From Cetorhinus maximus (Eukaryota): a stretch of DNA of 64,000 bases. Position 1 is the first letter of the stretch; each line of letters starts with the position of its first letter. Positions 10,801-13,800 of the stretch are shown here, piece after piece. A model generated the notes under the pieces. That model worked only from the letters and a program-made list of their open reading frames with translations, had not been told where the DNA came from and made no database searches. Made by a program: the position numbers and the translations under genes. The stretch spans positions 134,106,001 through 134,170,000 of the forward strand of contig NC_135888.1 in the NCBI RefSeq assembly GCF_964194155.1. Direction: 5' to 3'.

Positions 10801-13800
10801 TGAAATTTTAAAACAAATAAAATAAAAATCACTGTTGCTGTTTAGCTTTCTTTCATCTTGAACTTTTAATGGGAGGAGAGGAAGCAATTAATGTGAAAGG
10901 GCATGACAGTGGACACGACTACATGGCAGAATGGGCAGCATTTTGTCCTGTATTTTGGTTCATTGAAGTTGCCTGTGGTATAAAGGCACAGAAAGTTTAA
11001 GTGGTGAAGCTGGACTTTGGGCCTGGGTCTCAGTGTAAACAAGATGGAAAAGAAAAGCATTGAAACCCCCAATTATATTGAGCTTCAGACTGAAATATAA
11101 CTAATGTGTGTAAAATTGTTGGCACTATATACTTGTTATTGGGAAGTGCTTAAAACAAACTTTCACCTCTGCCCCTCCAGTTTGCAGTTGACGTTAGATC
11201 ATTAAATTTCTATTATAAATGGATAAACGATAATGAATATGTTCTGTCTTCTTAGAAATCCAACAGTATCATGTACATCAGGATTGCAGTTGGAAGTGCA
11301 AACTACTTCAGCTGAATTGGGACACAGCTGTATTAATTCTGCAGGACCATGTTCATTCTGGACGAGTCCTCTCTAAACTTGATACCGTCCTTTCTTAAAT
11401 AAAATGCCATTAAAGCAGCTGAAAATTCCATTGGAGCTAGGCAGTGAATAAAAGGAAATAGTTGTATGATATTATAGTCCAAATTTCAATTTGATGCTGC
11501 TTATTGATAGGGTGGAGCTGTAACTGGCTGATGTAATGCTGGCTGAAATTACCTCACTCGTACTACAAGGGAAATTGTCACAGAAATGCTCATGCTTTTC
11601 AAATTTGTTCCATTTCTGTTAAATTAAGTTTAGGCATTTATTTGGATCAGGAAAGTTCCAGATGAAGCACAGAACATCAACTGTAGGATTTATGTCAACT
11701 CCAGCATAGCTGCTACTGAGTTTGATTAGATCGATTGGTTGCAAGCTGCAAGTGTATTCTCATAAAGATTTAAACACATTAAAACTCCAAACTCTACGTG
11801 TGATGCAGAATCATTCTTCAACACAAAGCTAGCATCTTCATATTGGCTTTCCTGCCAGTGTTATTGCAGAATATCTTTAAAGTTCTACCCAACATTACCC
11901 GCTTTTATAAGTTGAGTTGATCAATGTCTATTTAATTGGTGTAGTTTTATTATAGTCTGGCTAATGTGAATGTCCACATCCTTTGAACTGATTCTTACTT
12001 AGGAAAGATCGGTTGTTGGCGTAAATGAAATCGTGAAATTCTTTACTCCAGCTTAACCTTCCCCGCTGAGATCTGTGCAATACTGATGGCTATTACCGTG
12101 TTCGGAATGTGTACATGGGTTTGTTGCTGAATTGCTGGCATCCTTGGGACAGGTTGGATGTGACATTGTCAGCTACAGAGAGTTTACATATATAATGTAT
12201 GTATTGGTTGAGAAAAGTGGGAAAATGTGAGCGTGAATTTCAGAGTCCACTCCATGTGGAGTTGGTTCAGAAGCGATAATGAAAGGAGAATTTATAAACT
12301 GTAACAGGACTGGAAGAACGCGGAATATGAAAGCCCCAAAGTGGGTGGAACATTTGTATTACAAGTGTCTACAAACTTGTCAATAATTAATCTTAAAATC
12401 TAGGTGGAATATTTGAAATTGATTAATTGATTGTACCCCACCACCAAGCCATTAGGATATCAAATTTGTGATGGTTGCAATGTTTATTACGGTAGTTAAG
12501 GTAACTACCTTAAGGTAACTTAGCCTTTGTTCTTGATTTTAATAAAATAATACATGAGCTGTAACCATCTATAAGTTACAAAGGACCAGTGACTGGCAAA
12601 AAGTTCTTCCAGACCTGTGTGATTTGAAATCTGTTGTTCAGTTGAGTTAATTATCATTGTTACTCCTCCCCACCATGCTTTGCTGCCACACACACTGTAC
12701 CACTGGCTTAGTGGTAATTGCTGACCAGTTTTCTCCTGTTCCTTCATGCACGATCGATCTGGAAACTCCTTCCCCTTGTGACATATTTTTTGGACCTGGT
12801 GAATTCTGCACTCTGGACGGAATCTGCGGGAATGAAAATTTTAACGGGTGGATTTTAATGGGGCTTGACTGCTAACATTGCTTAATGGGACTTTGATGAT
12901 TATTGGATTTGTGGTGCACATTACCTACATATGCACCGAACTTGAAATCAAAATGAACAAATTTGGAACAATCGTTGCAAAATACTGGTCTGGATATTTC
13001 TGCTACCGGACTCGACACTCTAACATGGCTGCACGGGTGATGTGCTCTTTGCCTAATGAACAGGTGCGTAACTTTTTTTAACAGGTCTGTATATATAGAA
13101 AATGTTTTTAGCTCGTATATCGACTGGTCAAGCACTTAATTTTGTAGCCAACATTTTAGTGCTTATGTGAGCAGCTACATGTATTTGTATGTTGCCTTTA
13201 ACAGAATAAAATATCCCAAAATGCTTCACAGGAACATTGTAAGCCAAAATTTGACCAGAACCACATCAAATGGTATTAGGGCAGATGGCCAAAAGTGTGG
13301 TCAGAGAGTTAGGCTTGAAGGGGCATCTAAAAGGAGAAAAGAGGGGTTTAGGGAAGGAATTCCAGTGCTCAGGGCCCAGGCAGCCGAAGGCATGGCCACC
13401 AATGATGGAGGATGCTCAAGAGGCGTTAGACGGGCGCAGATATCTCTGAGGCCTCTGGTGCTGGTGGAGATTATAGAGAACTATAAAAAAAAATGCAGTA
13501 TATAGAGACTAGAAATTGTTGTCCAAGAATGTATCTTGGAGATTTTAATGTTTACTGTAACTTTACAAAAAAGAATCCCTCCGCTAAGCGTACCTTGTCA
13601 TCTGATCAAGAGCCAACATCGATGGCTTTTGCAGAGAAGTCTGTGACTTTGGATATTTGCCTTCTTGGTTAAAGGAAGACCTGAATGGAGGGAGAAAGGC
13701 CGAGGGCAACTGCTGGGAACTCCATATCCCAAAGCCAGTCTGTTTTCTTTCCACGAAGCAATCAGCCACATTTGCATCACATAAAATCTGTAAAATTAAA

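What the first reader, a model, noticed from the sequence alone, without database searches (positions are those of the whole stretch)
12953..13063. Hidden exon in HARS intron 1 that could supply a mitochondrial presequence (one gene, two compartments)
Seen: 37 codons ([37 protein letters not shown]) with 5 K/R, several S/T and no acidic residue until position 36. It ends in a phase-0 donor like exon 1, so it can replace exon 1 and give a 518-aa protein lacking half the WHEP domain. No head-to-head HARS2 is visible upstream. Established: mammals use separate HARS1 and HARS2 genes, while zebrafish makes both enzymes from one hars gene by alternative splicing. Inference: the single-gene dual-targeting state is present in this lineage and may be ancestral for jawed vertebrates.
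Basis: partly seen in the sequence, partly recalled or inferred. Interest (0 to 1): 0.7.

Follow-up and report, generated by a model that had tools for sequence, protein, structure and literature searches.

The report
Shark HARS mitochondrial cassette exon
A real optional exon most likely lets this shark's histidine-charging enzyme gene make a mitochondrial version as well as the cytosolic one; zebrafish is known to do the same, so this extends a known arrangement to sharks, rays and chimaeras.

Summary
The exon is real but neither hidden nor a new mechanism. The 37 codons (12953-13063) end at a phase-0 donor and join exon 2 into an open 518-aa HisRS. With 19 extra N-terminal residues this is identical to RefSeq isoform X1 of Cetorhinus maximus. 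The same peptide is on record for 22 of 23 cartilaginous fish species seen and is homologous to gar and sturgeon peptides (z about 10), so the exon dates to the jawed-vertebrate ancestor. RNA contigs from 4 of 4 laid runs of related sharks cover 12710-13063. Their geometry points to a 352-nt cassette with its acceptor at 12711, not the 12612 or 12728 first proposed; the two cassette joints are inferred, not listed. Inclusion stops the exon-1 frame at once and offers a new ATG, as published for zebrafish hars and human KARS1. Not tested: mitochondrial import, a predictor score, and absence of a second HisRS gene (no genome held). Leads: horn shark has two adjacent HARS loci; turtle HARS2-type N-termini match the length and Arg position but mostly fail a shuffle test.

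The parts
4808..4897 (+). HARS exon 1 coding part (30 codons, first half of WHEP domain), strong ATG context, phase-0 donor; start of the 511-aa cytosolic form
   Evidence: 0 differences to RefSeq XP_078407322.1; WHEP profile 1-24; exon1-exon2 GT..AG joint listed in 4 of 4 runs
12710..12711 (+). Acceptor AG of the cassette exon, weak pyrimidine tract
   Evidence: cassette contigs begin matching at 12710 in 4 of 4 runs with 28 unaligned letters before; scores -10.3 on a matrix made from the gene's own acceptors (2.3 to 20.9)
12712..13063 (+). 352-nt cassette exon: 241 nt of leader plus 111 nt of presequence-coding sequence
   Evidence: records 5, 13, 20, 27; expected contig length 409 equals X1's
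12715..12717 (+). TAA at cassette codon 2; ends the exon-1 frame as a 31-codon upstream ORF when the cassette is included
   Evidence: assumes exon 1 is the upstream partner (inferred)
12896..12952 (+). In-frame upstream ATG and 19-codon extension used by RefSeq (537 aa); weak context (T at -3), 2 acidic residues, seen only in 2 of 22 species; probably a longest-ORF choice
12953..13063 (+). 37-codon presequence-like ORF (A at -3; net charge +5 over residues 1-35; invariant K3, G5, K10, R28, Q37)
13064..13069 (+). Phase-0 splice donor of the cassette
   Evidence: (contigs stop matching at 13059-13063 in 4 of 4 runs)
16495..16584 (+). Shared exon 2 (second WHEP half and linker)
17223..37878 (+). 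Shared exons 3-13 (17223-17342, 18643-18738, 20071-20196, 21849-21956, 26475-26573, 29332-29425, 30205-30332, 32366-32626, 34281-34397, 35843-35989, 37819-37878): catalytic and anticodon-binding domains, stop codon
   Evidence: (all introns GT..AG, no internal stop)
18739..20070 (+). Intron with U12-type signals (5' GTATCCTT, branch TCCTTGAC)
   Evidence: consensus motifs recalled; human HARS carries a U12 intron per passages of PMC7612377

Best explanation
One HARS gene makes both enzymes by including or skipping a 352-nt cassette exon. Skipping joins exon 1 to exon 2 and gives the 511-aa cytosolic HisRS with a WHEP domain (shown in relatives' RNA). Inclusion (strongly inferred) puts a stop two codons into the cassette, so the exon-1 ATG yields only a 31-codon upstream ORF. 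Ribosomes that leak past it or re-initiate 235 nt further on start at 12953 and make a 518-aa HisRS whose first 30 or so residues act as a matrix-targeting presequence, probably cut just after the invariant Arg28 (inferred from zebrafish and from composition; not tested). The exon is orthologous to the ray-finned fish cassette and so was present in the last common ancestor of jawed vertebrates.
For: Gene model open and identical to RefSeq X1/X2 of Cetorhinus maximus. Peptide on record in 22 of 23 chondrichthyan species seen, 37 aa in 21 and 38 in the chimaera; K3, G5, K10, R28, Q37 invariant in 21 of 21; no acidic residue in the first 30 in 17 of 22; net charge +2 to +6. Nine skate-type proteins of 514-517 aa on record from Logan contigs (eight of them Logan-only, 1.8-2.1 kb) carry the presequence joined directly to exon 2, which needs a spliced transcript. 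RNA contigs of 4 of 4 runs (4 studies, 2 related species) cover 12710-13059/13063; each has 28 unaligned letters upstream, three have 30-31 downstream; lengths 409, 407, 407 fit 30+exon+27. Shuffle test with M1 and Q37 removed and the last Arg fixed: gar z 10.0, sturgeon z 9.5, Aldrovandia 5.4 against sharks, 0 of 1000 shuffles reaching the score. Zebrafish: 309-nt cassette, exon-1 ATG hits a stop in it, tagged variant co-localises with mitochondria (PMC5608375).
Against: The joints 4897^12712 and 13063^16495 are not among the 15 listed rows (201 hidden) and the overhang letters were not shown; in run X3 the contig stops at the donor with no link. No RNA of the window's own species was laid. 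The acceptor is weak. Six ATGs lie in the cassette before 12953, behind a strong exon-1 ATG, so translation may be inefficient. Amphipathicity is modest: moment of residues 2-13 reached by 218 of 5000 shuffles here, by 4897 of 5000 in the chimaera; the best 11-residue moment (0.58) is no higher than that of exon 1 (0.63). Polypterus (z 0.8) and Takifugu (z 0.7) peptides were not significantly similar to sharks. Pristiophorus has only a WHEP form on record. No genome-wide search for a second gene was possible.
Confidence: 0.88

Rival explanations
1. The exon is reached from a different upstream non-coding exon or its own promoter, not from exon 1, so the mitochondrial mRNA avoids the exon-1 upstream ORF.
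For: The 28 upstream letters of the cassette contigs were not displayed. Avoiding a strong upstream ATG would make translation easier. Yeast HTS1 uses alternative transcripts (passages of PMC7600831).
Against: All 4 contigs begin at an AG with the same 28-letter overhang, which means a spliced 5' end. The exon1-exon2 joint has only 27 letters on its short side in all 4 runs; in X1, X4 and X6, where it is a separate short contig, this fits a fork exactly at the end of exon 1. The CpG-rich promoter-like stretch is at exon 1 (GC 0.62, CpG o/e 0.70) and not before the cassette (GC 0.39, o/e 0.43). Zebrafish RT-PCR shows the cassette form.
Confidence: 0.1
2. The cassette is mainly a poison exon: its early stop sends the mRNA to nonsense-mediated decay to tune HARS level, and the downstream ORF is rarely translated.
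For: The stop lies 346 nt before the next exon junction, beyond the 50-55 nt rule (recalled). Weak acceptor.
Against: The 37-codon frame keeps its length, phase and basic, acid-poor make-up across sharks, rays, chimaera and gar; identity to six other sharks (25-34 of 37) is near that of coding exon 1 (23-29 of 30). Decay would not need that. A second role in decay is not excluded.
Confidence: 0.05
3. The exon is translated but a second HisRS gene elsewhere supplies mitochondria, and this isoform is redundant or goes elsewhere.
For: Only 4.8 kb upstream is visible; in anole Hars2 lies next to Hars on the same strand (table in PMC2764143). Horn shark has two loci. RefSeq's 537-aa start adds a hydrophobic stretch.
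Against: No second Cetorhinus HisRS appeared among the listed hits of three searches (best 120, all 6, best 120) or among the 15 of 18 cluster members listed. The 19-residue extension is found in only 2 of 22 species.
Confidence: 0.06

Closest known systems
Zebrafish hars exon 2 cassette (Waldron et al. 2017, PMC5608375)
   Same: Same gene and intron; cassette whose inclusion stops the exon-1 frame and supplies a new ATG with a presequence; forms of 520/513 aa there, 518/511 here; peptide homologous to ray-finned fish peptides.
   Different: Cassette 352 nt here, 309 nt there. Localisation was shown in zebrafish, not here. The zebrafish peptide itself was not among the sequences tested; a cyprinid (Megalobrama) gave z 2.7.
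RefSeq histidine--tRNA ligase isoform X1 of Cetorhinus maximus (XP_078407321.1) and other sharks
   Same: 0 differences over 537 aa to the window's model started at 12896.
   Different: Automatic model with no mitochondrial label in the name shown; starts 19 codons upstream of the conserved ATG.
Human KARS1 alternative exon 2 (Tolkunova 2000, seen only through PMC7600831 and PMC4394549)
   Same: Exon 2 inclusion brings a stop for the exon-1 frame and a downstream start with a targeting peptide.
   Different: A different synthetase; the parallel is in design, homology of the exons was not tested.
Tetrapod HARS1/HARS2 gene pairs
   Same: Two N-termini, WHEP and presequence, for two compartments; turtle HARS2-type N-termini are 37 aa with Arg ten residues from the junction in 6 of 6.
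   Different: Separate genes; sequence similarity of the turtle peptide to the shark exon is not significant (z 0.3-1.8).

Membership tests
Eukaryotic HisRS (HARS) gene | Catalytic tRNA-synt_His domain plus HGTP anticodon domain in an open frame | tested here: met
   (PF13393 E 1e-41, PF03129 E 6e-20 on the identical RefSeq proteins)
Zebrafish-type single-gene dual-targeted hars | Optional exon between exons 1 and 2, with skipping and inclusion both transcribed | tested here: met
   skipping joint listed in 4 of 4 runs; exon-bounded contig in 4 of 4; inclusion joints inferred from contig geometry; relatives' RNA only
Zebrafish-type single-gene dual-targeted hars | Inclusion stops the exon-1 frame and a new in-frame ATG lies in the cassette | tested here: met
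   stop at cassette codon 2; ATG at 12953 gives 518 aa
Zebrafish-type single-gene dual-targeted hars | Cassette peptide homologous to the ray-finned fish peptide | tested here: met
   gar z 10.0, sturgeon 9.5, Aldrovandia 5.4, Plectropomus 3.2, Megalobrama 2.7; Polypterus 0.8 and Takifugu 0.7 not significant
Zebrafish-type single-gene dual-targeted hars | Only one HisRS gene in the genome | tested here: inconclusive
   none other in the 64 kb or among listed hits; no genome held
Cleavable mitochondrial presequence | Basic, acid-poor N-terminus with hydroxylated residues and an Arg near the cleavage site | tested here: met
   net +5, R28 invariant in 21 of 21; criteria recalled
Cleavable mitochondrial presequence | Amphipathic helix / TOM20-type motif | tested here: inconclusive
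   moment of residues 2-13 reached by 218 of 5000 shuffles; a hydrophobic-x-x-hydrophobic-hydrophobic pattern (recalled) in 19 of 22, but it is a common pattern
Cleavable mitochondrial presequence | Import into the matrix and cleavage; TargetP/MitoFates score | not testable with these tools
   no predictor or experiment available
Tetrapod HARS2 first exon | Sequence homology with the shark cassette peptide | tested here: inconclusive
   three turtles against sharks z 0.3, 0.5, 1.8; four against ray-finned fish z 0.6-2.6; Gopherus against gar plus sturgeon z 3.8; same length and Arg position in 6 of 6

The most novel reading that the evidence does not exclude
This cassette is the ancestral jawed-vertebrate targeting module, and HARS2 arose repeatedly by duplicating the gene and splitting its two splice forms between the copies: the reptile HARS2 first exon is the old cassette, and horn shark (two adjacent loci, 439 of 452 core residues identical, a presequence form on record for only one) is a recent independent split in progress.
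Probability: 0.35. Interest if true: 0.5.

Novelty: new member of a known kind. Interest (0 to 1): 0.28.

Why it matters
It moves the zebrafish arrangement from a teleost case to an exon shared by sharks, rays, chimaera, gar and sturgeon, which fixes the starting state from which tetrapod HARS1 and HARS2 split. It corrects an automatic annotation (likely start 12953, not 12896; likely mitochondrial) and gives the exon's 5' boundary. It also offers horn shark as a possible young duplicate for studying how splice forms are divided between gene copies. The mechanism itself is published, so a specialist would find it expected.

Tried and rejected
Whole-genome search for a second HisRS gene: no genome held. 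Direct database search with the 37-aa peptide: below the tool's minimum length; a region search on the Heptranchias form gave only 14 candidates and 6 hits. No run holding the stretch is on record as RNA; the four laid are guesses, though their GT..AG joints show spliced RNA. Contig depths were not used as expression levels. Acceptors 12612 and 12728: rejected, since no listed contig extends to 12613 and all four begin at 12710. RefSeq start 12896: judged less likely (weak context, 2 of 22 species). Hydrophobic moment as a discriminator: fails, exon 1 scores as high. Homology of turtle HARS2-type N-termini to the shark exon: not established. Bird N-termini were not scored. No coelacanth, lungfish, lamprey or mammalian HARS2 sequence came up among the listed hits, so these were not tested. 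Pfam scan of the 51 upstream ORFs (of 302 flank ORFs; the 251 downstream were not scanned) found no neighbour gene. Two Scyliorhinus torazame models differ at 7 of 378 residues; left open as duplicate or assembly effect. Lee et al. 2017 is not held. Earlier scan notes: none relevant.

Full report
1. Observation. It has 5 K/R, 5 S/T and its only acidic residue at 36, and ends at a phase-0 donor matching 8 of 9 consensus positions. The window holds a complete shark HARS gene on the + strand: exon 1 at 4808-4897 and 12 shared exons from 16495 to 37878, all with GT..AG introns. Exon 1 plus the shared exons gives 511 aa; the candidate plus the shared exons gives 518 aa with no internal stop. Exon 1 covers WHEP profile positions 1-24 of 53 and exon 2 positions 25-45. 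By sequence alone the case is modest: 4 of 330 donor-like sites on both strands carry an ATG frame of this composition, the candidate and three on the minus strand.

2. It is already annotated. The 511-aa model has 0 differences to RefSeq XP_078407322.1 (isoform X2, Cetorhinus maximus). The model started at the in-frame ATG at 12896 has 0 differences to XP_078407321.1 (isoform X1, 537 aa). The 19 extra residues occur only in Cetorhinus and Carcharodon, 2 of 22 species; that ATG has T at -3 while 12953 has A. I take 12953 as the likely start (inference; Kozak rules recalled).

3. Conservation. Of 23 cartilaginous fish species seen have an isoform with this peptide; Pristiophorus has only a WHEP form on record. 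The peptide is 37 aa in 21 species and 38 in Callorhinchus. M1, K3, G5, K10, R28 and Q37 are invariant in 21 of 21. Net charge over residues 1-35 is +2 to +6; 17 of 22 have no acidic residue in the first 30. Identity to six other sharks is 25-34 of 37, against 23-29 of 30 for exon 1. These are mostly automatic models, so they are not independent of each other's method.

4. RNA. One run search listed 15 runs, none on record as RNA. I laid four RNA-guess runs from four studies and two related species on 4300-18900. All four show GT..AG joints exon1-exon2, exon2-exon3 and exon3-exon4, so they are spliced RNA. Each has one listed contig matching 12710 to 13059-13063 with 9-11 differing letters. 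Each has 28 unaligned letters upstream; X1, X4 and X6 have 30-31 downstream, X3 has none. With 31-letter words (assumed), a contig running from the end of exon 1 through a 352-nt exon into exon 2 should be 409 long: X1's is 409, and X4's and X6's are 407 with 2 gaps. The main contig begins exactly at the exon-2 merge point in X1, X4 and X6. So the acceptor is AG 12710-12711 and the exon is 12712-13063. Against: the two inclusion joints are not among the 15 rows listed (201 hidden), the overhang letters were not shown, and exon 1 as the upstream partner is inferred. Independent support for the downstream joint: eight Logan-only proteins of 514-517 aa on contigs of 1.8-2.1 kb, and one shared with RefSeq Leucoraja, carry the presequence joined directly to exon 2.

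5. Age. Test: mean alignment score to eight chondrichthyan peptides, first Met and last Gln removed, last Arg fixed, 1000 shuffles. Gar z 10.0, sturgeon 9.5, Aldrovandia 5.4 (0 of 1000 each), Plectropomus 3.2, Megalobrama 2.7; Polypterus 0.8 and Takifugu 0.7 not significant. In reverse, Cetorhinus z 6.3 and Callorhinchus 8.7 against eight ray-finned fish. No unrelated presequences were available as controls. Shared position and sequence in both branches place the exon in the last common ancestor of jawed vertebrates (parsimony). No jawless outgroup was tested.

6. Mechanism. Shown in relatives: skipping. Strongly inferred: inclusion. From the sequence: on inclusion the exon-1 frame stops at cassette codon 2 (31-codon upstream ORF); six ATGs precede 12953, five of them closing within 3-11 codons; 12953 lies 235 nt after the stop. 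Inferred: leaky scanning or re-initiation gives the 518-aa form; its basic, acid-poor N-terminus directs import and is cut shortly after Arg28 (cleavage rules recalled). Amphipathicity is only modest. The stop is 346 nt before the next junction, so molecules that do not re-initiate could be degraded; this is a possible second role, untested.

7. Second gene. None in the window: 251 proteins, 2590 HSPs, 4 outside the exons and all retroelement-derived. Only 4.8 kb upstream is in view and no genome is held. No second Cetorhinus HisRS came up among listed hits (15 of 18 cluster members listed). The point stays open.

8. What is known. PMC5608375 (parts 1-4 of 5 read: abstract to most of the references; figures and supplements not seen): zebrafish uses a 309-nt cassette with the same stop-and-restart logic, shown by RT-PCR and tagged localisation; the single gene is called ancestral; amphibian, bird and mammal duplications are called independent; no cartilaginous fish in its table. 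PMC7600831 and PMC4394549 (passages): human KARS1 works the same way. PMC7414715 (passages): Hars/Hars2 is listed among families with recurrent divergence after independent duplications. PMC2764143 (passages): anole Hars and Hars2 lie on the same strand. Lee et al. 2017 not held, known only as cited. Searches listed no paper on HARS isoforms in cartilaginous fish; PMC8251883 was seen as a listing only; subscription journals are mostly not covered.

9. Leads beyond the finding. Turtle HARS2-type proteins have 37 residues before the exon-2-like segment, with Arg ten from the end, in 6 of 6, as in sharks and gar. But z against sharks was 0.3, 0.5 and 1.8 (three tested); against ray-finned fish 0.6-2.6 (four tested); only Gopherus stood out (3.8 against gar plus sturgeon). 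Their exon boundary is inferred from protein. Heterodontus has two loci with consecutive accessions on a contig of the same length; they group together at 100/99 in a 37-row tree and share 439 of 452 core residues. A presequence form is on record for the first only. This could be a young duplicate, a haplotype copy or incomplete annotation.

10. Verdict. Real exon, reading supported, boundaries corrected. New member of a known kind; interest 0.28. The bolder reading, splice forms split between duplicates with the old cassette becoming the HARS2 first exon, has probability about 0.35 and interest 0.5 if true. The scan's earlier notes held nothing on this.

Noticed in passing
window 18739-20070 (+): Intron 4 of the cytosolic form has U12-type 5' site and branch signals; human HARS is reported to hold a U12 intron (PMC7612377 passages). 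Position match to human not checked.
   Followed up: partly
P0159/P0010 versus P0012 (Heterodontus francisci): Two adjacent HARS loci, 439 of 452 core residues identical; presequence form on record for one only; both WHEP N-termini are shortened.
   Followed up: partly
P0128, P0130, P0131 (Scyliorhinus torazame): Two draft models on different scaffolds differ at 7 of 378 residues and RefSeq names the gene '-like'; possible second shark duplicate or assembly effect.
   Followed up: partly
P0257, P0259, P0034, P0036, P0273 (skates and rays): The cytosolic first exon is short or eroded (skate forms of 490 aa with about 10 residues before exon 2; no WHEP hit recorded for P0034 or P0036) while the presequence exon keeps 37 codons.
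   Followed up: no
P0015, P0035, P0049, P0070 (salamanders, caecilian): HARS forms of 489-490 aa that start with neither WHEP helix 1 nor a presequence.
   Followed up: no
window 6665-9742 (-): A 1026-codon stop-free frame of a LINE-type retroelement in HARS intron 1, with a further frame at 9721-10161; reverse-transcriptase similarity at 7742-8203.
   Followed up: no
window about 1920-2012 (-): Exon-like piece with AG and GT ends on the minus strand upstream of HARS; no Pfam match. Could belong to a head-to-head neighbour; unidentified.
   Followed up: partly
window 4564-4743 (+): Degenerate GC-box-rich tandem repeat directly upstream of exon 1, within the CpG-rich promoter-like stretch.
   Followed up: no
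window 13025 (+): In-frame ATG in strong context inside the presequence; would give a 494-aa form lacking most of it. Met at this position in only 10 of 21 species.
   Followed up: partly
window 22735-23533: Inverted repeat pair (about 185 nt, 83% alike) in an intron; probably a transposon remnant.
   Followed up: no
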